IMG/VR virus record: IMGVR_UViG_3300045988_136394
Span: 32,001 to 96,000 of that record
DNA from: a virus
Strand: one strand, 5' to 3'
DNA: 64,000 nt
The notes under the pieces were generated by a model. That model was given only the letters and a program-made list of their open reading frames with translations. It did no database searches and was not told the DNA's origin. Shown here piece after piece: positions 35,641 through 49,374 of this stretch; the stretch's first letter is position 1; every line of letters starts with the position of its first letter. A program made the position numbers and the translations under genes.

Positions 35641-35657
35641 AATTAACCTCCTTCTAA

Positions 35658-35980: not shown

Positions 35981-36021
35981 ACACCTTAACCCCCTTTATA
36001 ACTCCTAATATAAAGGCATTT

Positions 36022-36465
36022 TCATTTGCCTGTACTTCCTACTCCGCCAACTCTTTCAGGTAGATTATCTACATCTTCGGTATCCACAGTATGATATCTA
36101 TGAAAAATACCCTGTGCAATACGATCGCCTTTTCTAAACGTATATGGAGCATTACCTCTATTAGTAATGTCAATTAGGATTTCTCCTTCATTATCCGGAT
36201 TATTATAATAATCAGCATCAATAATGCCTGTCCCGTTAGTTAACTGTAAATTATATTTAATACCTAAACTAGAACGAATATGAATATACAAAACTTCATT
36301 ATCATTCATTTGACATTTAATACCAGTTTTAAAAAGAATAGATTGTCCTGGATTTAAAGTTACTCCTCCCCATGGAGCAAAAAAATCATAACCAGCTGAT
36401 TTTTTTGTTTTTCTTTGTGGAATAAAAGCTTCCTTTACTTTTGATACTTTTTCAAAATTACGCAT
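36022..36465 (-). CDS. dut: dUTPase
   Basis: Motifs KSAGYDF, NGTGIIDADY, RVGGVGSTGK; start at ATG 36465 (RBS AGAGGTGA). Confidence 0.8.
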   Translation of the reverse strand: MRNFEKVSKVKEAFIPQRKTKKSAGYDFFAPWGGVTLNPGQSILFKTGIKCQMNDNEVLYIHIRSSLGIKYNLQLTNGTGIIDADYYNNPDNEGEILIDITNRGNAPYTFRKGDRIAQGIFHRYHTVDTEDVDNLPERVGGVGSTGK

Positions 36466-36760
36466 TATCTTCACCTCTACGATAAATTCTATGAATTTGA
36501 TAAAATTTGAAAGCTCCAATATAATATTCATCACATTTATCAATTTTCACTGCATATATATCTTCAGAATCACTAACTAATTCAGGATTTAAAGCATGAG
36601 AAACGATGCCTAAACCAACTCCGGAAACAAGAACTCTATCACCTTGCTCTAAATGATAGCCAAGTATCCATGTTAACCAACGTAAGAAATTCATAATTAC
36701 ATCAGAAAACACAAAAGCTCCTAATGTGCTTATAAATGCAACCACACAAAACTCTAACAT
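36458..36760 (-). CDS. Hypothetical membrane protein
   Basis: Hydrophobic N-terminus. Confidence 0.4.
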   Translation of the reverse strand: MLEFCVVAFISTLGAFVFSDVIMNFLRWLTWILGYHLEQGDRVLVSGVGLGIVSHALNPELVSDSEDIYAVKIDKCDEYYIGAFKFYQIHRIYRRGEDNA

Positions 36761-36924
36761 TACTTATTCAATCCTTTCCATAACAGCATATGTATTCTAA
36801 GTAACATAAATAAAATACAAGCTAATAAAATTTCTATGGAAGTTATCCAAAAACCCGCTTGTGATTTAAGAAAGCAAAAAGCGATTGCAACTCCAACAAA
36901 ACCATTGCATATCATTTCAAACAT
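36760..36924 (-). CDS. Small two-TM membrane peptide (54 aa) missed by ORF track
   Basis: RBS GGAGGA 7 nt upstream of ATG 36924; TAATG overlap with next gene; MFEMICNGFVGVAIAFCFL... Confidence 0.45.
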   Translation of the reverse strand: MFEMICNGFVGVAIAFCFLKSQAGFWITSIEILLACILFMLLRIHMLLWKGLNK

Positions 36925-37232
36925 TTTATTTCCTCCAATTTACGACTGACTTTAACTGTATCTGCATCAGGTTTTAATAATTCTTTAACAGCCTCACAAA
37001 GAATTTTATTATTATGCAAGCATGTATCATAGGCTTTTAAGATTGATTCTTTTTCTTTCAAATCATTAGAACATTTAGTTAAATAATCAATATATTGTTT
37101 TTGTAATTCTGAAAATTTTTTTGTAGCTATATTCCACATGAAATATAATACCACATTAACAATAATACTACAAAGAATGAGTAAAATTAAAAAGATTTCA
37201 GTTTCCGTGAACATTTTCTTTTCTCCTTTCAA
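36912..37232 (-). CDS. Hypothetical membrane protein
   Basis: N-terminal TM. Confidence 0.4.
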   Translation of the reverse strand: MKGEKKMFTETEIFLILLILCSIIVNVVLYFMWNIATKKFSELQKQYIDYLTKCSNDLKEKESILKAYDTCLHNNKILCEAVKELLKPDADTVKVSRKLEEIKCLK

Positions 37233-37497
37233 ATTTATTTTGTAACAAATTAATAAATTCTTTTGTTGCCATGTGTAATATATCCTGTTTTAAGGCAGCG
37301 TTATAATACTTTAGGTGAATGAAAACAATGCACTCTTGCACATAAATATTATTTAAGTATAAATCTGCCATACAGGATTTACAAACATGTAAAGTAACGG
37401 TTTCAAGTTGTGATTCTGTGCATTGATAGGGAGAAAACCATTTAGGAATCCAATCTACTAATTTATCACTTTCTTTATTGCAAATAGTACATTTCAT
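37198..37497 (-). CDS. Cys-rich hypothetical protein
   Basis: CxxC pairs. Confidence 0.4.
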   Translation of the reverse strand: MKCTICNKESDKLVDWIPKWFSPYQCTESQLETVTLHVCKSCMADLYLNNIYVQECIVFIHLKYYNAALKQDILHMATKEFINLLQNKFERRKENVHGN

Positions 37498-37835
37498 TCC
37501 TTCACTTCCTCAAACAAATCTTTAACTTTTACATTTAAAGCCTGTGCAAGACTGATAAGGGTACTTAATCGAACACTATTCTGTCTATCACTGGTATTTG
37601 TTTCGATAAGTCTAATAGTTGTAGGGGCTACCCCGGAAACGGCGGATAAAGCTTCCCTTGTCCATCTTTTTTTCTCCCTATATTGCCGAACCTTATAAAT
37701 AACTTTTTTTGTTTGTGTTGGCTTTACAATCATTTTAATATCATTAGTTTTAATATAATCAATTTTATGAATTTTTAAATAATGTAATACTTTAGTAAAA
37801 GCTTCAAATAATTCTGAATTAACTATTAGATTCAT
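37494..37835 (-). CDS. XRE-family HTH transcriptional regulator
   Basis: C-terminal WTREALSAVSGVAPTTIRLIETN...LSTLISLAQALNVKVKDL HTH. Confidence 0.6.
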   Translation of the reverse strand: MNLIVNSELFEAFTKVLHYLKIHKIDYIKTNDIKMIVKPTQTKKVIYKVRQYREKKRWTREALSAVSGVAPTTIRLIETNTSDRQNSVRLSTLISLAQALNVKVKDLFEEVKE

Positions 37836-37844
37836 TTTCTACAC

Positions 37845-38036
37845 TCATTTCTGATTAATATCAACAACTATTGGATTTAAATACTTATCTTTAACTTGCA
37901 TATCTAGTATTTTATTTGTTAACTCATAAATACATTGTAAAGCATTTTGTCTTATTGTAACATCTTCATCTTCCTGACAAGCACAAACCATGGCCTCGAT
38001 AAGTTTAGTTAAATTTTCATCATTAATAATTTCCAT
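37845..38036 (-). CDS. Hypothetical protein
   Basis: ORF. Confidence 0.35.
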   Translation of the reverse strand: MEIINDENLTKLIEAMVCACQEDEDVTIRQNALQCIYELTNKILDMQVKDKYLNPIVVDINQK

Positions 38037-38398
38037 TATAATCTACCTCTTTCACTATCTGCTAATTTAGTACATTCTAAATGATATATTCTACCTTTAC
38101 CATACGCACCACAATTTATAATAGCAGTATCTGTATTTACAATATCTTTAATATTTTTATTGACTTCTATAAATTGTTCTTCTGTGACAGGTAAAATTAC
38201 CCCTATTTTTAATTTAAATTCGGCGTTTACAAAGGCTTTTGTTGCATCGTGAATGAATAAATCAAAAACATTACATTCATACCCCAGTTGTTCATTTTTT
38301 ATCGGTTTTCCATTTTTAAGACAATCTTTAAGGGGATTGATAATATCCCATTTATAAATACCACTAAATTTAACTATAGCTGTAGCTTTAACTAACAT
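38036..38398 (-). CDS. Hypothetical protein
   Basis: ORF. Confidence 0.4.
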   Translation of the reverse strand: MLVKATAIVKFSGIYKWDIINPLKDCLKNGKPIKNEQLGYECNVFDLFIHDATKAFVNAEFKLKIGVILPVTEEQFIEVNKNIKDIVNTDTAIINCGAYGKGRIYHLECTKLADSERGRL

Positions 38399-38400
38399 TA

Positions 38401-38658
38401 TTAACCCTTCTTTCTCATTTGTTGTTCATATTGTTTAATTTGTTCTTCTATTTCGTGAATTTTATTCTTAATTTGATTAATATTTTCCATATTCTTAGAT
38501 TGTATTTCATTAAATGTAGAAACATATTCTTCTTTACTACAGATTTTCTTTTCTAATAATAAAGTTAAAATTGTCATGTTACTAGATCTTGTTATTTCTA
38601 AATCTTGCTGAGTTTCCGCTAATTCTTTTAGTATTTTAAAAATAAAACGATATAACAT
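38401..38658 (-). CDS. Hypothetical coiled-coil protein
   Basis: Start moved to ATG 38658 (RBS AAGGAGAA) instead of track start 38715. Confidence 0.4.
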   Translation of the reverse strand: MLYRFIFKILKELAETQQDLEITRSSNMTILTLLLEKKICSKEEYVSTFNEIQSKNMENINQIKNKIHEIEEQIKQYEQQMRKKG

Positions 38659-38669
38659 AATAATTCTCC

Positions 38670-38810
38670 TTAAAATATTATTTGTCTTATAGCATACAAA
38701 ATTAAAAGTATACATATAATCAGATTAAAATAAGATTTATTGCGCATATATAGTTGTAGACTGACAGTAAATAATATACCTAAAATAAAAGAATCAAGTT
38801 TACCATTCAT
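38670..38810 (-). CDS. Small TM peptide (46 aa)
   Basis: RBS AGGAG 9 nt upstream of ATG 38810; hydrophobic MNGKLDSFILGILFTVSLQLY... Confidence 0.35.
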   Translation of the reverse strand: MNGKLDSFILGILFTVSLQLYMRNKSYFNLIICILLILYAIRQIIF

Positions 38811-38828
38811 AAATTTAACTCCTAATAA

Positions 38829-39173
38829 TTACCGTCCAGTTATTAAATAATTCAAAGTTGCCCCTAACGGATTTTGTAAATAGGCTAAATACTCACTGAC
38901 GCCAGTAATGAAACAACACACCATACCTATACTTAATATGCCAAGAATAACAGATATTAAAGTTATGATAAACAATATATCATCTTTATACCTATATTTT
39001 GGAAATAACTTATAAAAAAGATAAAAAATAAAAATTATAAAAATTTCGAAAAATACCATTGCAATTAAATCATTAAACATATGATGCCCATAATATTCAA
39101 TTAAATCATCTAAACTTTTTTCGCCTACTGTGGTTAAACTATTTAAAATCTGAATAATTGTTTCTTCTTTCAT
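38829..39173 (-). CDS. Hypothetical membrane protein
   Basis: Multiple hydrophobic helices. Confidence 0.4.
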   Translation of the reverse strand: MKEETIIQILNSLTTVGEKSLDDLIEYYGHHMFNDLIAMVFFEIFIIFIFYLFYKLFPKYRYKDDILFIITLISVILGILSIGMVCCFITGVSEYLAYLQNPLGATLNYLITGR

Positions 39174-39592
39174 TATTCTTCCTCCTGTATTATTAAATCT
39201 TTATAGTCTTTATCTAAATATCTTTTCGCTTCTTCTTCCGACCTGTATAATTTTCCTGCTTTGCGTAATAATTGATGAAGTGTAGAGTCCGTATCAAATC
39301 TGACTTCTTGAATATAACCTGAAACAGTCACATAATAAACCATTTCACCATATTTAGGATAAAAAGGTTTTTTCTTTATAAAAGCTCTGCCAATTAATAA
39401 ACATAGTAAATTATAAGAATAACCACCATTTCTACTGGCACATTTTAAAATATCTTCCGGTTTTTCAAAATTTTTATTGATATAAAATAGTTCATTAGAT
39501 ATCTTTTCATGGTCTTTATCCAAAATATAAAATTTTTCACCTGCTTGTAAATCATTATCGTCTAAAAATTGTTGTATATATTTATTCATCAT
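39173..39592 (-). CDS. Hypothetical protein, paralog of 41172..41519 (KYIQxFL family)
   Basis: N-terminus MMNKYIQQFLDDNDL vs MVSKYIQYFLNENNL. Confidence 0.45.
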   Translation of the reverse strand: MMNKYIQQFLDDNDLQAGEKFYILDKDHEKISNELFYINKNFEKPEDILKCASRNGGYSYNLLCLLIGRAFIKKKPFYPKYGEMVYYVTVSGYIQEVRFDTDSTLHQLLRKAGKLYRSEEEAKRYLDKDYKDLIIQEEE

Positions 39593-39887
39593 CGTCATCT
39601 CCGTTATTTTCCATAATAGCCCCGCAAGCCTGACAATAATTGTCTTTGCTATATAATCCGAACTTGCTGTCGCATACGCTACATTGGATAAAGTTGCCAT
39701 ACTTATCAGGTTCTAATTCAATCCAATGCCCATGCTTACGTTCTTCTACAACTGGCATTGTATCAAGCCTATCAGCAGCACTTTGATAACCACTTCTAAT
39801 GCCGTCGAAAAAGCCAGGCCAAGCGGGTATAGTTTCAGCTATTGCTAATAACTCAGCTTTCGCCTTATCAGCGTCTATCAATCTCAT
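39582..39887 (-). CDS. Zinc-ribbon protein, paralog family (ERKHGHW...C.VC...C..CGA)
   Basis: Shared C-terminal motif with 39891..40154 and 41500..41916. Confidence 0.5.
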   Translation of the reverse strand: MRLIDADKAKAELLAIAETIPAWPGFFDGIRSGYQSAADRLDTMPVVEERKHGHWIELEPDKYGNFIQCSVCDSKFGLYSKDNYCQACGAIMENNGDDDDE

Positions 39888-39890
39888 AAT

Positions 39891-40154
39891 TTATTCACCG
39901 TCCATTTTAGCCCCGCACTCCGGGCAGTATTTTGTTTCGTATTCTTGTGGTTTTTTGCAAACGCTACATATGCTAGTATCTAAATCAATATCTTCCCAAT
40001 GCCCGTGCTTGCGTTCTTCTACTGTAGGGGCTTTGTCTATTAAACCTTGAAAAACGTTTAACGCATGAGCAAAACGAAAATCAGCCTTTGCATAAGCGTT
40101 TAACACTTCATTCATTAGTTCCATGCTTAAAGCGTCTTTATCTATTAATTTCAT
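39891..40154 (-). CDS. Zinc-ribbon protein, paralog family
   Basis: C-terminus EERKHGHWEDIDLDTSICSVCKKPQEYETKYCPECGAKMDGE. Confidence 0.5.
   Translation of the reverse strand: MKLIDKDALSMELMNEVLNAYAKADFRFAHALNVFQGLIDKAPTVEERKHGHWEDIDLDTSICSVCKKPQEYETKYCPECGAKMDGE
39895..39947. repeat. 53-bp exact direct repeat (copy 1); copy 2 at 41516..41568
   Basis: Identical string tcaccgtccattttagccccgcactccgggcagtattttgtttcgtattctt at both sites. Confidence 0.8.
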
Positions 40155-40195
40155 AATCTATTATGACTCCTTAAATTATAATATATGTTTCATTG

Positions 40196-40690
40196 TCACA
40201 ATACGTCGTCAGCCTCAATAACGGTCTTGTCATCATATTTTGATACCAATAGTACATCATGTCCGTAATATCCGTTGTGTTCATTATATGCAGCAAATTG
40301 TAACAAGCCTCTAGTCGTTTCAACATTAATAAACATAGCTGATCCAGCATCTAGATCTTCTTTCATGTTTGATACTATTGTCCCCAACTTAGTATCGGTA
40401 ACATAAACATTTTTTAATTCACTGCCAATAAAGCTTCCAAAATCGTCTTCACTAGATAAATAGCCCCAATTTTCACAACAATCTTGTTCATTATTTATGA
40501 CAAAATATAATTGTCTTGAATCTGTTTCAATACAATATCCATCATATGTGTTCCATTTATTATCAAAATAGACATCACTAACTTCTGTTATATTTTTTAT
40601 AATTTCCATATTTTTATTCACGCTCCAATACAGGCTCATAAGTTTCAAGGAAGATATCTTCATTTTTACTCGCTCCAATTTTTCGCGCAC
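40196..40690 (-). CDS. Hypothetical protein
   Basis: ORF. Confidence 0.45.
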   Translation of the reverse strand: MREKLERVKMKISSLKLMSLYWSVNKNMEIIKNITEVSDVYFDNKWNTYDGYCIETDSRQLYFVINNEQDCCENWGYLSSEDDFGSFIGSELKNVYVTDTKLGTIVSNMKEDLDAGSAMFINVETTRGLLQFAAYNEHNGYYGHDVLLVSKYDDKTVIEADDVL

Positions 40691-40980
40691 TCGTCACATA
40701 GCACCTCTACTTCATCTAAAACTGTTGCTGTATCATTCTGAACACGTGTCCCACAGTTTGAACAAGACAGCCACCAGCCATGACTTAAAAATTCTTTTGC
40801 TGGTATTATTTTACTGGCTCCATATTTATCAGCCCACGGAACACGATAAACCCGTATTTCTGTAAATTCTCTATCATGTTCGGAAGCAAGTAACGCTTTA
40901 GCTTTTCCCGGTGTAGCCGCCCAAACTACATGACTTTCGTCACGATATTCGTCGTCCCATTCATAAGCTTTTATATTCAT
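40666..40980 (-). CDS. Hypothetical protein with C-terminal zinc ribbon
   Basis: CSNCG...CDEC. Confidence 0.45.
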   Translation of the reverse strand: MNIKAYEWDDEYRDESHVVWAATPGKAKALLASEHDREFTEIRVYRVPWADKYGASKIIPAKEFLSHGWWLSCSNCGTRVQNDTATVLDEVEVLCDECAKNWSE

Positions 40981-41002
40981 TCTTTTTTATCTCCTATACA
41001 TT

Positions 41003-41257
41003 TTAATCCGCTTCAAATAGCGGAATATCTTTTCCTACACTGGCTATACGCTTTTCGGCTATGTCGCAATATTCCGCTGATATTTCAAAACCTATAAATT
41101 TTCTGCATGTTAATATAGCCATTTTTGCTGTTGTACCGCTGCCACAAAACGGGTCTAGAACAACATCACCTTTATTTGACCAATTTATTAAACAATGTTT
41201 GGCTATGGATAACACCTTTATTCCTTCCTTCGTCAACCGCGACGTAAAAATATACGT
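41003..41257 (-). pseudogene. Truncated DNA methyltransferase (C-terminal motif I fragment of beta-class N6A/N4C MTase)
   Basis: DPFCGSGTT SAM-binding motif + IGFEI; frame opens only about 85 codons before stop; no N-terminal catalytic (DPPY) region; upstream replaced by 41172..41519 gene. Confidence 0.5.
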
Positions 41258-41519
41258 CGCCTATTTCGGGCTGCCACGGTTTCTTTTTGACATAGTATAA
41301 GCCAGTTAATAAACCTAACAATATAGTGGGGCAAAAGTTTTCATCCTTTTTAGAAATTAAAATGTCATTTGTGTATGTTGGAGTGTTTTTAAAGAAAAAT
41401 GCTTCATTATCTTTATATACTTTACTGCCGTTTTCGTACACTATTGTAAATTCTTCGCCTAATTCTAAATTGTTTTCATTTAAAAAATATTGAATATATT
41501 TACTTACCATTATTATCAC
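41172..41519 (-). CDS. Hypothetical protein, paralog of 39173..39592
   Basis: Shared N-terminal motif. Confidence 0.45.
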   Translation of the reverse strand: MIIMVSKYIQYFLNENNLELGEEFTIVYENGSKVYKDNEAFFFKNTPTYTNDILISKKDENFCPTILLGLLTGLYYVKKKPWQPEIGDVYFYVAVDEGRNKGVIHSQTLFNKLVK

Positions 41520-41916
41520 CGTCCATTTTAGCCCCGCACTCCGGGCAGTATTTTGTTTCGTATTCTTCTATGTTTTGGCAAACGCTGCACATACTTGCGT
41601 CAAAAGTAATGTCTATCCAATGCCCTTTATCACGTTCTTTTTCCGCTGGCATATCGTTAATAAGTTCGTAGGCGCATTGATAGCCATTAAATTTTCCTTC
41701 GTAAAACCTACCGCTATATTCTTTTATAGCTTCTCCTGCAAGATATAGTGCTTTTAATGCGGGCTTAAAAAGCTGTATCTGCTGCCCACATTTTGGGCAG
41801 TAAACAGAATCGCTGTTATTCACCGTGTCCGTGATGTGATAATCACATTCAGGGCAAAAATCTACTCTTTCCCCATTTCTTAATTTAAATCTCTTGCTAT
41901 ATTTTATATTTGTCAT
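41500..41916 (-). CDS. Zinc-ribbon protein, paralog family
   Basis: CPECDYH...CPKCG plus C-terminal ...EYETKYCPECGAKMDGD. Confidence 0.5.
   Translation of the reverse strand: MTNIKYSKRFKLRNGERVDFCPECDYHITDTVNNSDSVYCPKCGQQIQLFKPALKALYLAGEAIKEYSGRFYEGKFNGYQCAYELINDMPAEKERDKGHWIDITFDASMCSVCQNIEEYETKYCPECGAKMDGDNNGK
41516..41568. repeat. 53-bp exact direct repeat (copy 2)
   Basis: See copy 1. Confidence 0.8.
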
Positions 41917-41930
41917 ATTTTTTCACTCCT

Positions 41931-42386
41931 TTATGGCAGTCCCCTTACTGTTACTATTTCCTTTTTATCGTTGGCACGAATTTCTACTGTATGAATTTCA
42001 AATTTTTGCACATAGCCGCACTTGTTATATATCGCCTGTGCGCCTTGTTTCGCCCTTGCAAACGTTTTATAAAGCTTAACTTCTCCATTGATTGTTGGAA
42101 CGTGTCCCGGTACATATATATCGCCTTGAAGTCCTATTGTTCCAGTGTAGTAGCCTAAATTGTTGCCTGTGCAATTTCCGAAATTATGAATTAAATAAAT
42201 CGCGTACCGGGTATGTGAATCTAGTTGAAAAAAATCCCCGTACTGCTTTGCCGCCGTCAAGGTCGGAAAAGATTTTATCATTCTATCTCGAAAATATAAT
42301 ATGTAGTGTCGGTTCACTTTTTCTATCGTGATTAAATGGCTATGTGACATTTTATAACAGTCATTTACTTTATCTTTAATCCACAT
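41931..42386 (-). CDS. Hypothetical protein, first gene of early leftward operon
   Basis: RBS AGAGAGG; about 300 nt downstream of consensus promoter. Confidence 0.5.
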   Translation of the reverse strand: MWIKDKVNDCYKMSHSHLITIEKVNRHYILYFRDRMIKSFPTLTAAKQYGDFFQLDSHTRYAIYLIHNFGNCTGNNLGYYTGTIGLQGDIYVPGHVPTINGEVKLYKTFARAKQGAQAIYNKCGYVQKFEIHTVEIRANDKKEIVTVRGLP

Positions 42387-42696
42387 TCTGGTAAACCTCT
42401 CTTATAATGATATCTGTAGTTATTCGGTATATTTCACGAATAGCAATCGTGTTTTCTTGGCGGTATTTCAAACTAAAAAGTTTTATGTAGTCTTTTGCTA
42501 TTTCCATGCTATCAAAATCTAACTTTTCTTGTATCTTGCCATTTATAACAATGCAGTATATCTTTTTTTACAACAGCGTTACTATCTTGCATTTTATTCC
42601 TCGTCTGCTTCTTCAACTTTCGGGTAACGCATATCAAGATATTCGCAGTCTATATTGCCCCCTTTATTTTTTTATTTTTCCTTACCTCTTGTCTAT

Positions 42697-42725
42697 ATTA
42701 TAGCCCCCCTTTGTCTTGTTGTCAA
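42697..42725 (-). promoter_or_regulatory. Consensus sigma-70 promoter on minus strand: TTGACA-17-TATAAT (copy A)
   Basis: Plus tgtcaa 42720-42725, attata 42697-42702, exact 17-nt spacer; duplicated with flanks at 56693..56721. Confidence 0.65.
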
Positions 42726-42751
42726 GTATTTTTTGAAAAATTGCAAAATTA

Positions 42752-42782
42752 AAAAACAGGGCAAAAGCCCTGCTTTTTTGCT
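42752..42782. terminator. Bidirectional hairpin terminator AAAAAACAGGGC-aaaa-GCCCTGCTTTTTT
   Basis: 7-bp GC stem flanked by A6 and T6; ends block-2 tail operon. Confidence 0.65.
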
Positions 42783-42902
42783 TTTCTGCTTTTTGGTTAT
42801 AAGTTAGGAAAAATAAATTCAAAAACAGAAAGACTGTCAGCTTGGTAAACTGTAGCGATTATTCTGTGATTAATTAAGTTTTTAAAATTATAACACACTT
42901 TT

Positions 42903-43418
42903 TTAAAATTCAACTGAAAAAATCTTGTCTGCACGTTTATATTTGTTTACCGCGTCCCGTGCTTGCTTGAAGCGGTTGTACGCGGATTGTTGCAGCAAGG
43001 CGGATTTTAATAAAATGCTTTCAAAGTCGCCTACCGTTAATGTTACAAGCTCATATTCTCCCGCTTCATTTTTTGCCCTAAAAAGGTTATCGCCTTTCAT
43101 TTTTGCAACTTCATGCGCCGAATTAAATTTAATAATGTTGTCCGTGTCCCGGTCAATGTAGTAAGTCTTACCGTTGACTTCGTACTTTGTGGGGACTACT
43201 AATTCGGACTGATATTCTTGATATAGCTGGCTAATGCGTATAGCTCGGGCTTCATCCGTACTGTAATTTAATTCTAATTTTAATATATTTAACGCGCTAC
43301 ACTGTTCATCTGTCAATGTGTTTGGAAGTGATACATTCGGCATAGCTCGCCGCAACGCGTTAATGCTGGTGTAGTCAGTCCCTTTGTATCTATACACTGT
43401 TTTTTTGTCCATTTTCAA
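42903..43418 (-). CDS. Hypothetical protein downstream of tail fiber
   Basis: ORF. Confidence 0.45.
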   Translation of the reverse strand: MKMDKKTVYRYKGTDYTSINALRRAMPNVSLPNTLTDEQCSALNILKLELNYSTDEARAIRISQLYQEYQSELVVPTKYEVNGKTYYIDRDTDNIIKFNSAHEVAKMKGDNLFRAKNEAGEYELVTLTVGDFESILLKSALLQQSAYNRFKQARDAVNKYKRADKIFSVEF

Positions 43419-43427
43419 ACCCCTTTC

Positions 43428-46103
43428 TTAACCGCTATACGGCAGGACTACTGTGTCGCATACCTGAATTGAAAAGCTGCTTCCATAATTCGTTATTGCT
43501 ATAATATTAATTATATTGTTCGCATTTGCCGTTAAGGTCGGCGCAACACCTTTAGGGTAGTAGACTGTGCTAGCCGTCGGGAACTTCCAAGTTACCGCCG
43601 GAACAGTAGCCCCCACATGTAACCAAATGGTTAATGTCTTACACATATGAGGCCCCGATCCAAAGGGCGCTTTGAAGTCTATTGCCGAAAAATTCATATT
43701 TAAGCTCGACGGGTTATTGATCGAACAGTTAACCAGATAGCAATTTGCTGTTGATTCATAATCAACGGTATTCCCTGTATTTGGCGATGCGAAGCGAGTA
43801 ACTTCCGCTGTTCCCGTAAAGTAAAGGCAGCTTTCATTGTTCCCAGCTTGAATAACGCCGTTAAATATGCCAGTATTTAACGTTGAGCCAACCGTTAAGC
43901 TCTGTGATATATAAAAGTTACCATTGCTATCAATGCTGCTTGTGTTGCTGGCTAGGTTGTTCGGCGTGAATAGTATCTGCCCATTACTGTCTGCCTTTAT
44001 AGTTACATTATTGTTATTTCTGTCAACTTCTAATATCTTAAAGTTTCCAACTTGCAAGGCTGCATTTTTCGTATAGCTGATAGCAGAATTATTCTGTAAA
44101 GAAAATATACTGTAGTCAGTGCTAATGGCTTCTGCTTGATTTGAAAGCCGCATACCTGCCGTGTTATCGGCTGCCTCGGGGTAAAAACCTATGATTTTGC
44201 TTGTACCGCCGCCACCTACTCTTAAACCACTTGAAGTGCTATACTTTAGGATATTATTAGATAAAAAGTCAAGTGTAGCCGTCGTTGCAGTACCGCCTAT
44301 TGTGGCAACTTCTGTTGCGCCAACGTTAAAAAAGTGTGCCAGTCCTTCTGTTGCTGTATAATACATTGCTCCGGTAGTAGTGGAATTTATCTTTGCTTGC
44401 GTTGTTGCGCTATTAGGCTTCATGCCTAATGTGATAGTTCCACCACTGCCCGCAAGTGCGCCGTCCCTAACTGTTATAGGTTTGTTAAATGTGTTCGTTC
44501 CTGTAAAGTTGTTATCTCCTGCGGCGGTAACATCACCGCCACCGCTTGCCTCAATGGTAATATCTTGCGTGCCGTCAAATGCCACACCATTTATTGTGCG
44601 GGCAGTTTCTAGTTTCGTAGCTGTCTTTGCATTACCTAACCATTTTGCAACGCCGACATTTGTTATTCGCGCAAATTCAAAGGCATTATGTGAAAAGATT
44701 GCTGTTTCACTTTCGTTAGTAGTTATGGATGTAGCCGCAGTATTATTGCCAATTTTGAAGTAATGTCCAGTTTTTTCTGTAGCAATATAGTTTAACGCCC
44801 CTGTTGTGCTAGATATGATATTCGCTTGTACTGTTGCTGTACTGGGTTTTACGCCAAAAATAACCTGTCCTTGACTGCCTGCCGCTGTGCCGCTTGATAC
44901 AGCAATGTTTGCTCTGAAAGTATTTAAAGCTGTAAAGGTATTGGCTGAATTTAATTGAGCGTATCCACTTAAATCATGGTTACCGCCTAGAATATCCCAT
45001 TGTGCGCCGTCCCATGCTACGTTGTCCCCTGCTTTAATACCGTGGTCGGGGTCTGCCGTTTCGACGTTATAAACGTCACCTATTTTCTGCCCAGTAGTCG
45101 GTAAATCTGCGTAAGTCGCAACGCTGCCTTTATATTGATATACCGTTGTTAATCCGAGTTGTTCGGCGGTTACTTTGTGCGGGTTATTGAAGTCAGCTTC
45201 ATGTGTAGCAAGGTTATTCGCTACAGTATTTATCTTTTTAGTTAATGTCGTCGTAGTTCCGTCAATATCTGCTTTTGTAGCCAGCTTATACCACTCTGAC
45301 CAGCTGCTAACGGTAGCCGGGTCACTGTTTTCTACAATTTGCCCGAAACGGTTATAAATCGCTCCGGTCGTTTTGCTCACCCATAGCTGTTTACATACGC
45401 TGTCATTATAATCGTTATCAACGTTTAAAAAGCCCGGGTTTGTTTCGGGCGCGTTAGGATTATTAGAAGCTTGTAAATACCAGCGATGAATATCAACTAA
45501 TGTGTTTACATCTGTCGCTTCTGTCACGTTATTATAATAGTTTAAAATGCTTAACTGCTCAATTTTTGTCAATGCGTCCTCTGCTTTTGTTAACGCATTT
45601 TTAGCGTCATTAGCTGCGCTGTTAGCGGCTTTTTGCGCAGCGTCAGCAGTATTTTGCGCAGCGTCGGCGGCTTTTTGCGCAGCGTCGGCTAAATCGTATG
45701 CTTCGTCTGCTCTTTTTTGCGCTGCTGCTGCGGCTGTAGCGGCAGATGTTCCAACGCTTAAAGCATTGTTTGCAATATTCAATGCAGTATCAGCGGTTTG
45801 TTGCGCTGTTTGAGCCGCGGCAAGTGCATTATTCGCCGTTTCTAATGCTGCTAAAGCTATGTTATAAGCCTGTTGTGCTATTTTTAACGCTTCATCTGCG
45901 ACTTGTTCCGTTGCATATGCTACGTTGCCTATATCGTTAATAGCGTCCTCTGTTTGTTGCTGAAAGTATAACCCTGGCAGTGCGCCCTCTATCGGCAGGT
46001 ATTTGAATTTGTAGTATTCTCTGTTTAATATCTTGTTATTAATGTCATCTAATAACCTAGCATTTCTTATACGGGTTGAGTTGACTATATTGTTAATATC
46101 CAT
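43428..46103 (-). CDS. Tail fiber protein (891 aa) with Ala-rich repeat region
   Basis: Conserved fiber segments shared with 13478..15796; imperfect 21-bp tandem repeats around 45600-45700 encoding DAAQKAA-like heptads. Confidence 0.8.
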   Translation of the reverse strand: MDINNIVNSTRIRNARLLDDINNKILNREYYKFKYLPIEGALPGLYFQQQTEDAINDIGNVAYATEQVADEALKIAQQAYNIALAALETANNALAAAQTAQQTADTALNIANNALSVGTSAATAAAAAQKRADEAYDLADAAQKAADAAQNTADAAQKAANSAANDAKNALTKAEDALTKIEQLSILNYYNNVTEATDVNTLVDIHRWYLQASNNPNAPETNPGFLNVDNDYNDSVCKQLWVSKTTGAIYNRFGQIVENSDPATVSSWSEWYKLATKADIDGTTTTLTKKINTVANNLATHEADFNNPHKVTAEQLGLTTVYQYKGSVATYADLPTTGQKIGDVYNVETADPDHGIKAGDNVAWDGAQWDILGGNHDLSGYAQLNSANTFTALNTFRANIAVSSGTAAGSQGQVIFGVKPSTATVQANIISSTTGALNYIATEKTGHYFKIGNNTAATSITTNESETAIFSHNAFEFARITNVGVAKWLGNAKTATKLETARTINGVAFDGTQDITIEASGGGDVTAAGDNNFTGTNTFNKPITVRDGALAGSGGTITLGMKPNSATTQAKINSTTTGAMYYTATEGLAHFFNVGATEVATIGGTATTATLDFLSNNILKYSTSSGLRVGGGGTSKIIGFYPEAADNTAGMRLSNQAEAISTDYSIFSLQNNSAISYTKNAALQVGNFKILEVDRNNNNVTIKADSNGQILFTPNNLASNTSSIDSNGNFYISQSLTVGSTLNTGIFNGVIQAGNNESCLYFTGTAEVTRFASPNTGNTVDYESTANCYLVNCSINNPSSLNMNFSAIDFKAPFGSGPHMCKTLTIWLHVGATVPAVTWKFPTASTVYYPKGVAPTLTANANNIINIIAITNYGSSFSIQVCDTVVLPYSG

Positions 46104-46118
46104 TTTTTCACCCCTTTG

Positions 46119-46844
46119 TTAATCGCTTATTAATGGTAGCCAGCGCACATACTCCGCGCCACTCACTAAATAGGTAGCACCTTTTGGTACTGGAAAAGAT
46201 ATTGAACAGTTTCCTTGTCCGTATTTACCTCTACCTGCGGTATACATTACTTCTAAACCGTTTACATAGCCAGTAATCCCAGTATTCCGATAACTTTTTG
46301 CAGTTATAATTCCGTCTGTTGTAGCAGTGCCATTTGATGAAACACTTGAATAACTGCCGAAATGTGTTGCCACAGGTTTGGGTATCTCTCCAATGGATAT
46401 GTCTATCTTATCTTGTACTTGTTCAGGTGTGATACCGCCTATATATGGCAAAAGCTCTTGCCAGTATGTTGTATCAATGCCCGGAGTTTTTAGCCCTGCC
46501 GCCGTATCTACGCCATTAGCAAGAATGCACATATAAAGCTTGTTGTTGTGATTTACTAGGCAGTTTGCAGAATACTGTAAAGTCGTCTTGTAAGTCATTA
46601 AACCGCCGCTTTGCTGCCAATAAGCGAAAGCGGATAACATATAAAGAATACCGTTAAAGTCTGCCCGTGTCGGGGCTATGCCGCCTGCCTTAATTGGGAC
46701 TTGCGTTATAGCAGGGAAGCCGTTCGTCTGTGACGCTAATCCCGTTGTTTCGTTATTCGTTGCCGGAATGATGTTTTTTGTCCCTTCGTTTGCAAAGGGT
46801 CTTTCAAATAAATACAATGGTTCTTGAACTACTGGTATAGCCAT
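46119..46844 (-). CDS. Tail fiber/baseplate-associated protein
   Basis: Position between gpI-like and fiber. Confidence 0.45.
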   Translation of the reverse strand: MAIPVVQEPLYLFERPFANEGTKNIIPATNNETTGLASQTNGFPAITQVPIKAGGIAPTRADFNGILYMLSAFAYWQQSGGLMTYKTTLQYSANCLVNHNNKLYMCILANGVDTAAGLKTPGIDTTYWQELLPYIGGITPEQVQDKIDISIGEIPKPVATHFGSYSSVSSNGTATTDGIITAKSYRNTGITGYVNGLEVMYTAGRGKYGQGNCSISFPVPKGATYLVSGAEYVRWLPLISD

Positions 46845-46864
46845 TTTAACACTTCCTTTTTTCT

Positions 46865-47524
46865 TTATTCTATAGATTGGAGAGGGTACGGGTCAAAGAC
46901 GCCATTATTGAATGGTTGAAGCAGGCTGCCGTTAAAACCAAACGTATTATCGATATCAATCATTATCAGTGACCAGCCTACGCCTGCGCCTACGATTAAA
47001 TTCGCGCCTATCCTAAATATGGCAAGCTGTACATCTGTTAAATACATTGTGAATACGAAGCGAACGTGCATGGGATAGTTATTGTAAAACGTCCCGTCCT
47101 CTCTTTGCTTTTCGTCGATAACGTTGAATACAACGCCGCCCAGCTCCGGAAAAAGCTTGTTTAGCATATAGTTAAGCGTCGCAAGGCTTGCGTCGGTGAT
47201 ATTAGCTAAAGCTTTATAGTAAAGCAGTGAGCGGTATTCATCATCTTTTAACGTGAATTTTTTCCCGTTGATAGGGTCTGTTATAGTTCTGCCCATAACA
47301 AGGATTTCGCCCCATATATCAAGTCCAACGCCGTTAGCCGTCGCTATATTAAATATATTGTCGTAAAAGACAAGCATATCTTTGCTAGGATTAATGTTTG
47401 AGCGAAAATCATCTAAAATCTGATAAATAGTTGTGCTGCTACCGTATTGACTTTGGATATACGGTTGTAGTTCAACACGTATATTGTCGCACTCGCGCAC
47501 ATCTTCTTGCCCTCTAAAGTCCAT
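46865..47524 (-). CDS. Baseplate protein, XkdU/gpI-like
   Basis: Position after J-like gene. Confidence 0.55.
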   Translation of the reverse strand: MDFRGQEDVRECDNIRVELQPYIQSQYGSSTTIYQILDDFRSNINPSKDMLVFYDNIFNIATANGVGLDIWGEILVMGRTITDPINGKKFTLKDDEYRSLLYYKALANITDASLATLNYMLNKLFPELGGVVFNVIDEKQREDGTFYNNYPMHVRFVFTMYLTDVQLAIFRIGANLIVGAGVGWSLIMIDIDNTFGFNGSLLQPFNNGVFDPYPLQSIE

Positions 47525-47536
47525 GTTTAAGCCCCC

Positions 47537-48736
47537 TTAATCTAGTACAGTAATCGTGATATTGCTTTCGCTCATTACTGGTATCTGATTAGCTGGAATA
47601 TCAACGCTATCAGTCCATTCTGACCCGCTAGGGTATGATATCTCAATATTTTCAAGGTTATCTACACCGACGTCAACTATATCGGCGTAGAAGCGGCTTG
47701 CGTAAATCGTCTGTGCCATTTTCGCGCGTCCGTATTTATTTAATTCGCCGTTGAAGTTTTGAAGAACAACTTTTTTAATTTGTTCTTCGTAATTGGTCGG
47801 AAGCGTCGAAGTTTTCCTTATCTTTACAGACAGCGCGAATGTTGTTGTTGTCGGTATCTCAATGTAGTAAACGAATTCATTGCCTTTTTCATCTACATAA
47901 GCGATTTTTGTGTTTCCCGAAATTCCACAGCCGCCGTCAATTTTTTCGTGAATCGTTTTGGCTATACTCTCTATGTTCCCGCCATAGACGCTACAGTAAA
48001 TGCTATGCGGGGGCAGTGTGACGCCGTAAAGCACTTTGTCCGTGTCACCGCGGTTTTCTAAAACCGATACGGCTACTACGTCGGAAAGGTTAGCTAGTGC
48101 GCCCTCAACCGCCGACGCTATGCCGTGGGCGTTCTGTGCTACGCTGGCACGTCTGCGCTGCTCAAATTCTGCCTGCGTTTCGCTGTTTCGTCCGGTGACG
48201 CCTGCGGCTAGATTTGTTATGCTGTCCCAGCCGGGAACAACGGTAACTATCTTCGTAAGCTGCCCTACGCCTATTTCAATAGCCCCACGCTGGCTACAGC
48301 GGAAAATAGCTGTAGCTGTTCCGTCCTCTCCTATGGTCGTTACTGTGACGTTCGTATATGTGTATCCCTTTTGGTCTTGGACTATAGCTCCATAGGGTAT
48401 AACTGTGCCGTATGCGCCTTTGATGTTGCCCGTAACAAGGGTTGCTATGGCTATATGGCGTTCAATGAAGTAAATGCCTGCTAGTGCGTCCTGCCATATT
48501 CCAAGCGCGGTTTTTGGATTGAACATATTCGCAAGATAAAGAATCTCACTATCTTTCCTGTTAATCAATACAGCCTGTCCGTCAATAAGCTGCCCCGCTG
48601 GTGTTTCGGGGGCTGTGTCAAGCAATGGCTTATTGGGGTCTGTCGCGAATGCTTTTTGCCATTGAGTTACAAGGTTAGCCCGTATCGCCGCCGTTCCGCT
48701 TGATACAAGCCCCGTATCCGGGTTAAATGTTATCAT
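47537..48736 (-). CDS. Baseplate J-like protein
   Basis: 399 aa, position. Confidence 0.75.
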   Translation of the reverse strand: MITFNPDTGLVSSGTAAIRANLVTQWQKAFATDPNKPLLDTAPETPAGQLIDGQAVLINRKDSEILYLANMFNPKTALGIWQDALAGIYFIERHIAIATLVTGNIKGAYGTVIPYGAIVQDQKGYTYTNVTVTTIGEDGTATAIFRCSQRGAIEIGVGQLTKIVTVVPGWDSITNLAAGVTGRNSETQAEFEQRRRASVAQNAHGIASAVEGALANLSDVVAVSVLENRGDTDKVLYGVTLPPHSIYCSVYGGNIESIAKTIHEKIDGGCGISGNTKIAYVDEKGNEFVYYIEIPTTTTFALSVKIRKTSTLPTNYEEQIKKVVLQNFNGELNKYGRAKMAQTIYASRFYADIVDVGVDNLENIEISYPSGSEWTDSVDIPANQIPVMSESNITITVLD

Positions 48737-48748
48737 TATAAATCCCCC

Positions 48749-49363
48749 TTAATCGTTTAATCTAAATGGATTGATATGAAAAGCGATCATAGATTGCCCC
48801 GCAGTCCCCTTGAATTTCCAGCCTAAATAAATTCGCAGATAAAACCATTTGCAATATTTTTTTGTGTAAAATATGCTCCATGTTTTATTTAAAAATATTC
48901 GATTATCGTTAACGACAGCGATATAGCATTTGTCGTTTTCAGCATAGTTATAGTCAACGTATGTTTTTACCTTATCAGCTAATACATAACGCCCGCAAAC
49001 CTCATAAGAAAAGCCATAAGCAGTATTTCTGTAAAGCCAAACATTGCGGCAAATATAACGCTGAATTTTTTCCCATATAGTAAAATTCGGGTCTAATATC
49101 TCTACGTATCCCGGCTTCATGGCGTATTTATTTTTGAATTCAGGGGTGTATTTATAATGCTTGTCAAAGTCATATCTAAACAGCTTTGGAACGCCGCTGT
49201 TAATTGTATGCGGTATGTCGATACAATTATCGTAAGTCTGCCACCAGCGCAGAGGATATGGAAGTTCTCCGTGTTCGTTTGAGAATAATATTACAACTGG
49301 ATTAGTTACATAGCATATCAATGTAAACATGATATCTAATATTAGATAAAAAATGTAAGTCAT
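48749..49363 (-). CDS. AT-rich inserted gene inside baseplate module: N-terminal TM anchor, W/Y/C-rich 170-aa domain, unknown function
   Basis: Local AT-rich composition contrasting with flanking J and gp25-like genes; TM MTYIFYLILDIMFTLICYV. Confidence 0.5.
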   Translation of the reverse strand: MTYIFYLILDIMFTLICYVTNPVVILFSNEHGELPYPLRWWQTYDNCIDIPHTINSGVPKLFRYDFDKHYKYTPEFKNKYAMKPGYVEILDPNFTIWEKIQRYICRNVWLYRNTAYGFSYEVCGRYVLADKVKTYVDYNYAENDKCYIAVVNDNRIFLNKTWSIFYTKKYCKWFYLRIYLGWKFKGTAGQSMIAFHINPFRLND

Positions 49364-49374
49364 GTTTTCGCTCC

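What the first reader, a model, noticed from the sequence alone, without database searches (positions are those of the whole stretch)
42387..42900. Abrupt compositional and organisational junction: two different contractile-tail phage modules abut, sharing a duplicated consensus promoter cassette, dUTPase paralogs and fiber segments
Left of about 42.4 kb the DNA is roughly 30% GC with a full PBSX-like virion module. Right of 42.9 kb it is roughly 45-50% GC with a second sheath/tube/chaperone/TMP/baseplate/fiber set.
The two blocks share three things. First, an about 60-bp promoter segment within a ~120-bp homologous cassette holding a perfect TTGACA-17-TATAAT promoter and a hairpin terminator (42.65-42.78 kb and 56.65-56.77 kb). 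Second, dUTPase paralogs (36022..36465 and 53296..54240). Third, about 400 bp of tail-fiber sequence (14.27-14.68 kb versus 44.56-44.96 kb).
This fits tandem related prophages, or a prophage next to a tailocin-like element, that exchange modules. An assembly chimera is also possible.
Basis: partly seen in the sequence, partly recalled or inferred. Interest (0 to 1): 0.55.

Follow-up and report, generated by a model that had tools for sequence, protein, structure and literature searches.

The report
Phage promoter cassette, not genome boundary
The flagged 0.5 kb is the normal terminator-plus-promoter spacer between late and early genes of one very common human-gut phage; the real seam with a second common gut phage lies 1.7 kb to the left at 40,655-40,664 and looks like a fusion of the two genomes.

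Summary
The interpretation of 42,387-42,900 is wrong.

More than 40 independent gut-metagenome, IMG/VR and virome contigs run collinearly through this interval. It is the late/early intergenic region of one ~49-52 kb E217-like myophage, "G". It holds an intrinsic terminator, a perfect TTGACA-17-TATAAT promoter and a conserved leader with a ribosome-binding site. The cassette occurs three times per G genome. Both window copies lie in G and none lies in the left block. Unrelated orphan genes follow each copy, as with the PeSL cassettes of T4-type phages.

G's late genes are 42-45% GC and its early genes 36-38% in every relative examined. Part of the GC step is therefore intrinsic to G.

The true change of genome is at 40,655-40,664. 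There G meets "P", a ~65.4 kb PBSX-like myophage of 29-33% GC. This junction (J1) is a ~0.8 kb deletion between 7-nt repeats. It removed one copy of a gene that G and P share at 98-99% identity.

J1 recurs in a second assembly whose graph context argues for real molecules. P+G contigs of 113.9 and 114.6 kb also exist. I judge the fusion probably real (~0.6), but an assembly path through shared genes is not excluded.

The parts
40655..64000 (-). Block G: part of a ~49-52 kb E217-like myophage. In order: tube, chaperone, tape measure, hub, an island of orphan genes, baseplate, fibres, then the first 2 kb of early genes.
   Evidence: Collinear with L001-L014 at 94-99%. 100.000% identical to L023 over 40,655-50,980 and to L095 over 51,199-64,000. 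Pfam families on relatives: E217_gp31, gp32, gp41, Baseplate_J.
1..40664 (-). Block P: part of a ~65.4 kb PBSX-like myophage. In order: small early genes, dUTPase, terminase, head, sheath/tube/tape measure/baseplate/fibres, lysis genes, then SNF2, DnaD-like, DnaB and primase.
   Evidence: 98-99.99% identical to L015-L022, L025 and L094. Pfam and PHROG annotation.
42903..43418 (-). Last gene of G's late operon (171 aa, orphan), directly after the 891-aa fibre gene.
   Evidence: Conserved as a 169-171-aa gene after the fibre gene in every G relative. No PHROG or Pfam hit.
42751..42781 (-). Cassette copy 2: intrinsic terminator, GCAGGGC-UUUU-GCCCUG followed by a U-run.
   Evidence: Fold energy -21.9 kcal/mol, z = -4.1. 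Stem conserved and loop variable across 50 unique copies.
42697..42725 (-). Cassette copy 2: perfect sigma-70-type promoter, TTGACA-17-TATAAT, with a conserved GGGGGGC just before the -10 element.
   Evidence: 0.00 expected by chance. Nearly invariant in 50 unique copies.
42652..42696 (-). Cassette copy 2: conserved unstructured leader ATAGACAAGAGGTAAGG-A-rich-AAAGGGGG (ribosome-binding-site-like). Homology between copies ends here.
   Evidence: Alignment. No stable fold.
41931..42386 (-). First conserved early gene downstream of the cassette (151 aa, orphan).
   Evidence: The exact protein is listed in 1,404 collection blocks and lies after the fibre genes and cassette in all eight contigs shown. 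No Pfam hit.
56652..56767 (-). Cassette copy 1: terminator 56,746-56,767, promoter 56,693-56,721, leader. It sits at the head of a variable orphan-gene/dUTPase island inside G's tail module.
   Evidence: The genes that follow differ among relatives.
56357..56617 (-). 86-aa orphan gene, the first gene after cassette copy 1.
   Evidence: Called in relatives L003, L005, L006 and L095. No family hit.
54292..56314 (-). IS607-type insertion: serine-recombinase tnpA 55,595-56,263, tnpB 54,478-55,641, RAGATH-18 RNA 54,357-54,429.
   Evidence: PHROG transposase hits. MerR, Resolvase and OrfB_IS605 Pfam families. Rfam 69.8 bits. Clean insertion relative to L005.
53296..54240 (-). G's 314-aa protein, N-terminal DUF7694 fused to dUTPase.
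   Evidence: 50% identical to P's dUTPase.
36022..36465 (-). P's 147-aa dUTPase, upstream of the terminase genes.
   Evidence: Pfam dUTPase in all P relatives.
40666..40980 (-). 104-aa gene, the last intact G gene before the seam.
40655..40664 (.). J1, the true G/P junction. The first 11 nt of G's 91-aa gene are joined to the last 50 nt of P's 99-aa gene at a 7-nt microhomology, GAAGATA.
   Evidence: G homology ends at 40,655 and P homology ends at 40,664. Sequence comparison with contig (a). The same junction is in L025.
40196..40663 (-). Fused ORF of 155 aa: G's 91-aa start codon read in frame into P's DUF7448 gene.
   Evidence: The exact protein is on only 2 contigs, the longest 113,939 bp.
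44553..44955 (-). Segment of G's 891-aa fibre gene shared with P's 772-aa fibre gene (14,270-14,669).
   Evidence: Up to 90% identity over 400 nt in other G relatives.

Best explanation
THE FLAGGED INTERVAL. 42,387-42,900 is the late-to-early intergenic region of a single phage genome (G). G is an E217-like myophage of about 49-52 kb that is very common in human gut metagenomes. The interval carries a compact regulatory cassette with four parts:
- a rho-independent terminator that ends the fibre/late operon;
- an A/T-rich spacer;
- a consensus host sigma-70/sigma-A promoter;
- a conserved unstructured leader ending in a ribosome-binding site.

I infer that it stops late transcription and starts host-polymerase transcription of the small early genes (151 aa and onward).

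The cassette occurs three times per G genome, each time in front of different, mostly orphan genes. It therefore works like the promoter-early stem-loop (PeSL) cassettes of T4-type phages, as a portable terminator/promoter/RBS unit marking the edges of variable gene blocks.

THE GC STEP. It has two components. G's own late genes are 42-45% GC and its early genes 36-38%. A second drop to 29-33% occurs at the real seam.

THE REAL SEAM. At 40,655-40,664 G is joined to P, a ~65.4 kb PBSX-like myophage. G and P share a 284-nt early gene (97 aa in G, 96 aa in P) at 98-99% identity.

The most likely history has two steps. First, a single homologous crossover in that gene fused the two genomes into a ~114.7 kb cointegrate. 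Second, a ~0.8 kb deletion between 7-nt direct repeats (GAAGATA) removed that copy of the shared gene. This produced J1 as seen in the window and prevented resolution by recombination between the two copies.

SHOWN: the cassette anatomy, copy number and conservation; collinearity across 42.4-42.9 kb; the breakpoint position; the J1 sequence and its recurrence; the contig sizes.

INFERRED: early timing and function of the cassette; physical reality and circularity of the cointegrate (about 0.6).
For: NO BOUNDARY AT 42.4-42.9 KB
- 8 of 8 contigs of 50-52 kb show fibre, 169/171-aa gene, cassette, 151-aa gene, then early genes.
- Single blastn alignments cross the interval, for example L008 41,755-52,070 at 94%.
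- The IMG/VR loci and ENA/JGI loci that extend that far agree, as does virome contig MT839655.1.

CASSETTE
- Terminator, 12/12 promoter and leader.
- A third copy lies ~8.7 kb further into G's early region in L007, L009, L010 and L011. None occurs in P.
- 50 unique copies align, and homology stops at the RBS, after which unrelated genes follow.
- Downstream genes have no Pfam or PHROG family.
- PeSL definition taken from PMC2839356 and PMC4122927.

GC
- Late genes 42-45% against early genes 37-38% in all G relatives examined.

SEAM
- G relatives stop at 40,655 and P relatives stop at 40,664.
- L023 is 100% identical to the window down to 40,655 and then continues as normal G.
- The 7-nt repeat is visible at both parental sites in contig (a).

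REALITY OF J1
- The fused 155-aa ORF is also on ERZ19667701 contig k119_26517 (28,334 bp, depth 8), which starts at window-equivalent 40,773.
- The G contig of the same sample (k119_22421, 48,861 bp, depth 30) is 100% identical to the window. By arithmetic it ends at 40,655, so the two overlap by exactly k = 119.
- The G unitig is unbranched for 48.9 kb upstream of J1, and no free-P path merges after J1.
- A 7-nt overlap cannot be produced by a de Bruijn mis-join.

COMPOSITE CONTIGS
- ERZ27262266 k119_58120 (114,561 bp) starts with P (L094) and ends with G (L023).
- A 113,939-bp contig carries J1, and 48,861 + 65,078 = 113,939.
- L113 (95,607 bp, a different strain) shows G, the undeleted junction, then P.
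- The shared gene is 284 nt at 98-99% identity.
Against: CASSETTE
- Its function is inferred from sequence alone. No transcript data were available.
- 'Early' timing is an assumption.

FUSION
- I never saw the reciprocal P-to-G junction.
- No reads, depth profile or long reads were available for the window itself.
- J1 has 0 exact hits in IMG/VR, in the 185,579 GTDB species-representative genomes and in the metagenome collection.
- G is followed by normal G early genes in all IMG/VR loci that extend that far (~25) and in ~22 of 29 ENA/JGI loci.
- The same shared region also links G to an unrelated prophage X in contig L122. Assemblers may therefore simply jump there.
- The same P strain is assembled apart from G in ERZ28663291 (64,450 bp).
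- A 114-kb fusion would not fit either capsid as a complete genome.
- The three samples carrying identical strains may not be independent.
Confidence: 0.8

Rival explanations
1. 42.4-42.9 kb is the boundary between two elements, either tandem prophages or a prophage next to a tailocin, and they share a duplicated promoter cassette.
For: Composition changes near there. Two unrelated tail modules lie on either side.
Against: Genes on both sides of the interval are syntenic in every G genome examined. Both cassette copies and a third copy lie within G, and none lies in P. G relatives have full head modules. The homology switch is at 40,655-40,664.
Confidence: 0.03
2. The G/P join in the window is an assembly path, not one molecule. 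A P variant that natively carries G-like early genes (as in L019) and the J1 deletion co-occurs with free G. The assembler then walked from G's late genes through the shared early genes into P.
For: - L019 is a P-type genome with G-like early genes (106, 91, 96/97, 99, DUF7448) at 94-98% identity.
- L122 shows G joined at the same gene to another prophage.
- Most G and P genomes are separate.
- J1 is absent from three large collections.
- Contig ends cluster at the shared 96/97 gene.
Against: - In ERZ19667701 the G unitig runs 48.9 kb unbranched up to J1. A P-specific upstream arm at depth 8 against 30 should have split it.
- No P-only closure (99-aa gene into DUF7448) exists in that sample.
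- The window is 100% identical to G, not L019-like, from 40,655 to 42,600.
- The contig lengths equal G + P.
Confidence: 0.3
3. Two prophages are integrated side by side in a bacterial chromosome.
For: Same strand and adjacent. A P-type genome sits in a 262-kb scaffold next to an HTH repressor.
Against: - The seam lies inside both early operons, not at attachment sites.
- No integrase or tRNA gene is present in the window.
- The composite contigs are 113.9 and 114.6 kb, which is G + P with no host flank.
- No close P relative occurs in the 185,579 species-representative genomes.
Confidence: 0.05
4. A single evolved ~114 kb phage that normally carries two complete virion modules.
For: Contigs of similar length recur: 113,939, 114,561, 115,346, 115,531 and 118,531 bp.
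Against: Both halves occur thousands of times as separate ~50 kb and ~65 kb genomes. The junction is a recent deletion scar, with flanks 99.98-100% identical to free genomes.
Confidence: 0.03

Closest known systems
PeSL (promoter-early stem-loop) cassettes of T4-type phages (Arbiol, Comeau and Krisch; PMC2839356, PMC4122927)
   Same: A composite unit of a stem-loop terminator, a strong sigma-70-like promoter and a Shine-Dalgarno site. It is present in several copies per genome, sits in front of orphan genes in variable regions, and gene content changes immediately downstream between close relatives.
   Different: - The phage is an E217-like ~50 kb myophage from gut metagenomes, not a T4-like phage.
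- Three copies were found in the ~40 kb of G examined, against many in T4-type genomes.
- One copy also separates the late operon from the early operon.
- No experimental test of promoter or terminator activity, or of mini-circle formation, has been done.
Pseudomonas phage E217-type contractile tail and head module
   Same: Pfam families E217_gp27, gp31 (sheath), gp32 (tube) and gp41, plus Pam3_gp18, Baseplate_J and Phage_Wedge1, in the canonical order.
   Different: - Low-GC gut phage.
- The tail module is split by an ~8 kb orphan-gene/dUTPase/IS607 island between the hub and the baseplate wedge.
- No close DNA relative among named phages in GenBank.
Bacillus PBSX/SPP1-like myophage virion module (block P)
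   Same: Terminase_3, SPP1 portal, Mu-F, sheath, DUF2001 (XkdM-type tube), Phage_TAC_5, YqbQ-like protein, DUF2577, sheath initiator, Baseplate_J and an XhlA-like lysis gene.
   Different: It is a complete 65-kb phage with its own replication genes (DnaB, primase, SNF2), not a defective PBSX-type element.
Hybrid and cointegrate phages formed by recombination between co-resident relatives, for example SPbeta/phi3T hybrids in Bacillus or lambdoid hybrids (recalled from my own knowledge, not checked here)
   Same: Homologous recombination at a short shared gene joins two otherwise different phage genomes.
   Different: Here both complete virion modules are retained in series (~114 kb) instead of one being swapped for the other. 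A secondary deletion has also removed one of the two recombination repeats.

Membership tests
PeSL-type regulatory cassette | Stem-loop that can act as a transcription terminator | tested here: met
   GC-rich 7-9 bp stem followed by a U-run, at -21.9 and -17.1 kcal/mol, z about -4. The stem is conserved and the loop is free to vary. Termination itself was not measured.
PeSL-type regulatory cassette | Strong sigma-70-like promoter next to the stem-loop, followed by a Shine-Dalgarno site | tested here: met
   12/12 TTGACA-17-TATAAT, with 0.00 expected by chance. AAAGGRG lies before the start codons in copies 1 and 3.
PeSL-type regulatory cassette | Several copies per genome that flank variable or orphan genes, with indels between relatives at the cassette | tested here: met
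   Three sites per G genome. Different first genes follow the same cassette. No family hits for the downstream genes.
PeSL-type regulatory cassette | Demonstrated promoter and terminator activity, and recombination between copies (mini-circles) | not testable with these tools
   Needs reporter assays or inverse PCR, as in PMC2839356.
PeSL-type regulatory cassette | Host genome is a T4-type phage | tested here: not met
   The structural genes are E217-like. This is therefore 'works like a PeSL', not membership of the described family.
Prophage boundary / tandem prophages at 42.4-42.9 kb | Different elements on the two sides, with att repeats, an integrase or a tRNA gene at the boundary | tested here: not met
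   The two sides are syntenic in all G genomes examined. No tRNA gene is present. No integrase is nearby. The only direct repeat is the internal cassette.
Tailocin / defective PBSX-like element (right block) | Tail module without head and packaging genes | tested here: not met
   Terminase, portal, Mu-F, scaffold-like, cement and capsid genes lie directly upstream in L001-L006 and L095.
IS607-family insertion sequence (54,292-56,314) | Serine-recombinase TnpA (MerR HTH plus resolvase domain) with TnpB, inserted without target duplication | tested here: met
   (Pfam MerR, Resolvase, OrfB_IS605). L005 positions 18,056 and 18,057 are adjacent at the empty site. RAGATH-18 lies 3' of tnpB.
Phage-phage cointegrate by homologous recombination | A near-identical segment is present in both parent genomes at the join | tested here: met
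   The 96/97-aa gene is 284 nt at 98-99% identity between G and P relatives.
Phage-phage cointegrate by homologous recombination | Both reciprocal junctions lie on one molecule, with read-level support | tested here: inconclusive
   The G-to-P junction was seen as J1 (window, L025) and undeleted (L113). Contig (a) must contain a P-to-G junction, but I could not read it. No reads were available.

The most novel reading that the evidence does not exclude
Two of the most widespread human-gut myophages, G (~49 kb) and P (~65 kb), physically fuse through a shared 284-nt early gene into a ~114-kb cointegrate. In one lineage a 0.8-kb microhomology deletion has removed one copy of that gene. Homologous recombination can then no longer resolve the fusion. 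The fused genome carries two complete virion modules and persists across samples, presumably as an intracellular replicon in a low-GC Clostridia host. The host is possibly a member of the Peptostreptococcaceae, because exact P proteins carry NCBI names from a Terrisporobacter MAG.
Probability: 0.45. Interest if true: 0.6.

Novelty: new member of a known kind. Interest (0 to 1): 0.38.

Why it matters
The flagged feature is ordinary phage regulatory architecture. It does extend the PeSL idea of portable terminator/promoter/RBS cassettes at the edges of variable gene blocks. That idea was described for T4-type phages of Gram-negative hosts; here it appears in an unrelated and very abundant gut myophage.

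The more useful outcome is practical. Contigs of ~114 kb that string together two common gut phages exist in public assemblies. They would be catalogued as one "large phage" with two tail modules.

If the fusion is real, it is a natural example of phage cointegration followed by a locking deletion. That would bear on how mosaic genomes and defective composite elements arise.

If the fusion is not real, it marks a specific shared gene (the 104/106-aa and 96/97-aa region) where assemblers mis-join gut phage genomes.

Tried and rejected
- GenBank phage search found only short unannotated faecal-virome fragments and no named relative.
- An exact 38-mer across J1 gave 0 hits in IMG/VR, in the GTDB species-representative genomes and in the metagenome collection.
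- A terminase search of the GTDB representative genomes for a host found nothing above 65% identity.
- The tRNA scan found nothing. Rfam found only RAGATH-18 in the IS element.
- I tried to read the reciprocal P-to-G junction and failed. The look-up of G's 222-aa protein returned only normal 50-52 kb G genomes. The look-up of the 139-aa protein returned only P fragments.
- I tested whether contig (a) closes on itself. There is no exact end overlap. Its ends lie 143 nt apart within the shared gene when placed on P references.
- I looked for the opposite orientation of the 36-nt-inverted-repeat segment in two relatives. Both have the window's orientation.
- The leader RNA of the cassette has no significant fold, so a structured riboregulator is unlikely.
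- Considered and rejected: a tailocin, an att boundary, and a chimera at 42.4-42.9 kb.
Full report
LAYOUT AND COMPOSITION

All long ORFs lie on the minus strand. GC is not a single step:

| Segment | GC |
|---|---|
| 1-40,654 | 29-33% |
| 40,655-42,640 | 36% |
| 42,900-50,103 | 42.5% |
| 50,104-58,700 | 36.9% |
| 58,701-64,000 | 44.7% |

- The cassette, 42,659-42,775 against 56,657-56,767, is 117 nt at 83% (E=8e-26).
- Two sub-blocks of fibre DNA are 86-87% identical.
- The dUTPase paralogs are 50% identical as protein.
- No other protein is shared between the two sides at blastp 1e-3.

WHAT THE TWO BLOCKS ARE

The right block ("G") encodes, in order:
- tube, chaperone, a 488-aa tape measure, a Dit-like protein, a Pam3_gp18-like protein and an E217_gp41 hub;
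- an ~8 kb lower-GC island of orphan genes, with an IS607 element and a DUF7694-dUTPase fusion;
- sheath initiator, Baseplate_J, Wedge1 and two fibre genes.

The exact tube protein is listed in 4,454 collection blocks. The contigs shown for it are ~50-52 kb and carry terminase, portal, Mu-F, cement, capsid and the E217_gp31 sheath directly upstream. G is therefore a complete E217-like myophage and not a tailocin.

The left block ("P") has a PBSX/SPP1-type module: Terminase_3, SPP1 portal, Mu-F, scaffold, capsid, sheath, DUF2001 tube, TAC_5, TMP_3, YqbQ-like, DUF2577, sheath initiator and Baseplate_J. Fibres, an amidase endolysin and an XhlA-like gene follow. After them come SNF2, DnaD-like, DnaB and primase genes. 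One exact P protein is listed in 6,586 blocks, and contigs of 65.3-65.4 kb recur.

THE FLAGGED INTERVAL IS INSIDE G

The 151-aa protein encoded just left of the interval (41,931-42,386) was looked up. All eight contigs shown, each 50-52 kb, have the order baseplate, 891-aa fibre, 169/171-aa gene, intergenic region, 151-aa gene, small early genes.

Blastn alignments run straight through 42.4-42.9 kb. For example, L008 aligns over 41,755-52,070 as one 10.3-kb piece at 94%. The IMG/VR loci and ENA/JGI loci that extend that far show the same, as does the faecal virome contig MT839655.1.

A boundary or a chimera at 42.4-42.9 kb is therefore excluded.

In every G relative examined the late genes are 42-45% GC, and the early genes and the internal island are 36-38%. 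Part of the "abrupt" compositional change is thus a constant property of this phage.

ANATOMY OF THE CASSETTE

Reading the minus strand, the cassette contains:
- a hairpin, GCAGGGC-N4-GCCCTG(C), with a U-run (-21.9 and -17.1 kcal/mol, z about -4);
- an A/T-rich spacer;
- TTGACA, then a 17-nt spacer ending in GGGGGGC, then TATAAT;
- an unstructured leader, ATAGACAAGAGGTAAGG followed by A-rich sequence;
- AAAGGRG, a ribosome-binding site.

Perfect 12/12 promoters occur four times in the window against 0.00 expected by chance. Two are the cassette copies. The other two stand before P's SNF2 operon and before its lysis genes.

G relatives carry a third cassette about 8.7 kb further into the early region, in a part the window lacks. 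No copy was found in any P locus.

Fifty unique copies align from the hairpin to the RBS. Similarity then stops and unrelated genes begin. The gene directly after copy 1 differs among close relatives. The downstream proteins have no Pfam or PHROG family.

This matches the description of PeSLs in T4-type phages: strong sigma-70-like promoters combined with terminator stem-loops that flank orphan genes and mediate modular shuffling (PMC2839356, PMC4122927).

I conclude that the flagged interval works as a late-operon terminator plus an early promoter. The cassette is a portable regulatory unit of G and is not something shared between two phages. Its function is inferred from sequence only.

WHERE THE GENOME REALLY CHANGES

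G relatives match the window from 64,000 down to 40,655. P relatives match from the left up to 40,664 at 98-99.99%.

L023 is the end of contig (a), ERZ27262266 k119_58120, which is 114,561 bp long. It is 100.000% identical to the window over 40,655-50,980. It then continues as normal G with the 91-aa and 97-aa genes, where the window switches to P. MT839655.1 matches only from 40,655 rightwards, so it does not cross the seam.

At the seam, the first 11 nt of G's 91-aa gene are joined to the last 50 nt of P's 99-aa gene. Both parental sites contain GAAGATA at the join.

Compared with genomes that have the order 104/106, 91, 96/97, 99, DUF7448 (L019, L113), the window lacks about 0.75-0.8 kb. 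The ends of contig (a) are compatible with that same order. J1 is therefore a deletion between 7-nt direct repeats.

G's 97-aa gene and P's 96-aa gene are the same gene, 284 nt at 98-99% identity. It is a ready substrate for homologous recombination.

IS THE G-P FUSION REAL?

In favour:
- A 7-nt overlap cannot arise from a de Bruijn mis-join, so J1 must exist in reads.
- The fused 155-aa ORF is on a second contig, ERZ19667701 k119_26517 (28,334 bp, depth 8). That contig begins at window-equivalent 40,773.
- The G contig of the same sample, k119_22421 (48,861 bp, depth 30), is 100% identical to the window over 12.8 kb. By arithmetic its last base falls at 40,655.
- The two contigs therefore overlap by exactly k = 119 and are neighbouring unitigs.
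- The G unitig is unbranched for 48.9 kb upstream. The P unitig shows no merge from a free-P path (99-aa gene into DUF7448).
- Contig (a) starts with P (L094: 99 aa, DUF7448 and onward, 99.99% identical to window 30,196-40,664). It ends with G (L023).
- The fused ORF's other contig is 113,939 bp, which equals 48,861 + 65,078. This contig is probably the window's source, because the look-up index does not return it.
- L113 (95,607 bp) comes from a different strain, with its G part 92-96% identical. It shows G's 169-aa gene, cassette, 151-aa gene, 104-aa gene, 813 nt, DUF7448, then P's early and late genes.

Against:
- J1 has no exact match in IMG/VR, in the GTDB species-representative genomes or in the metagenome collection.
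- Nearly all G loci continue as normal G.
- L019 shows that P-type genomes can natively carry G-like early genes.
- L122 joins G at the same gene to another prophage, one found in 363-366 kb bacterial contigs.
- The same P strain is assembled alone in ERZ28663291.
- I could not read the reciprocal junction.
- A 114-kb unit would not fit either capsid as a complete genome.

I put the probability that the window reflects a real molecule at about 0.6.

COMPARISON AND VERDICT

The flagged locus is a new member of a known kind, a PeSL-like cassette at a late/early boundary. It is not a junction of two elements.

The window as a whole is a head-to-tail composite of two very common gut myophages. They are joined 1.7 kb to the left of the flagged interval, at a deletion scar next to a shared gene.

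Host is unknown. Exact P proteins carry NCBI names from a Terrisporobacter sp. MAG. That fits P's 29-33% GC, but I did not test it.

Interest is modest for the flagged feature. It is higher if the locked cointegrate is confirmed.

Noticed in passing
54292-56314: An IS607-type element: serine-recombinase tnpA, tnpB, and a RAGATH-18 RNA at 54,357-54,429 just 3' of tnpB. It is inserted cleanly between G's 86-aa gene and its dUTPase gene. IS607 or TnpB copies sit at different places in other G relatives, so the element appears to be active in this phage lineage.
   Followed up: partly
16986-17021 and 17551-17586: A perfect 36-nt inverted repeat flanks 529 nt between two P fibre genes (15,789-16,976 and 17,267-18,241). 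By arithmetic, several P contigs end at window-equivalent 16.5-17.5 kb. This could be an invertible fibre segment, but the two relatives checked have the same orientation and no invertase was seen nearby.
   Followed up: partly
52450-53296: An ORF-free gap in G's island. It holds five plus-strand terminator-like hairpins, a plus-strand TTTACA-17-TATAAT at 52,773-52,801, and a 51-nt direct repeat (52,546-52,596 and 52,949-52,999). These may be antisense small RNAs or a terminator array. No Rfam family matched.
   Followed up: no
7182-7210 and 12062-12090: Two further perfect TTGACA-17-TATAAT promoters lie in P, one before the SNF2/replication genes and one before the lysis-region genes. They lack the G-type cassette context.
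   Followed up: no
39582-40154 and 41500-41916: Small paralogous early genes (34-64% amino-acid identity; 124-nt DNA repeat 39,895-40,018 against 41,516-41,639). A 246-nt presence/absence polymorphism at 39,750-39,995 occurs among otherwise 99.98%-identical P genomes. One P scaffold ends exactly at 39,749.
   Followed up: partly
L122:9984-20312 (relative locus; window-equivalent just left of 40,659): A 91.8-kb contig in which G's late genes and 104/106-aa gene are followed by 10 kb that is 99.95% identical to a different prophage. That prophage sits in 363-366 kb bacterial contigs (L117, L120). The region of the 104/106-aa and 96/97-aa genes is therefore a recurrent join point between different phages, or a recurrent assembly trap.
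   Followed up: partly
50104-58700: G's tail module is split between the hub (59,428-60,330) and the sheath-initiator/wedge gene (49,375-50,103). An ~8 kb lower-GC island (36.9%) of orphan genes plus the dUTPase gene lies between them, headed by cassette copy 1. The island is present but variable in all relatives.
   Followed up: partly
7248-9481: Exact matches of P proteins (154, 221 and 143/172 aa) carry NCBI names from a Terrisporobacter sp. MAG, with consecutive locus tags ACLUTP_06630 to _06645. This is a host lead consistent with P's low GC. Other names in the same clusters (Bacteroides uniformis, Phascolarctobacterium) look like binning or contamination noise.
   Followed up: no
45604-45708: Four 21-nt tandem units (heptad-like, Ala-rich) lie in G's 891-aa fibre gene. 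A faint Alanine_zipper Pfam hit is recorded on relatives.
   Followed up: no
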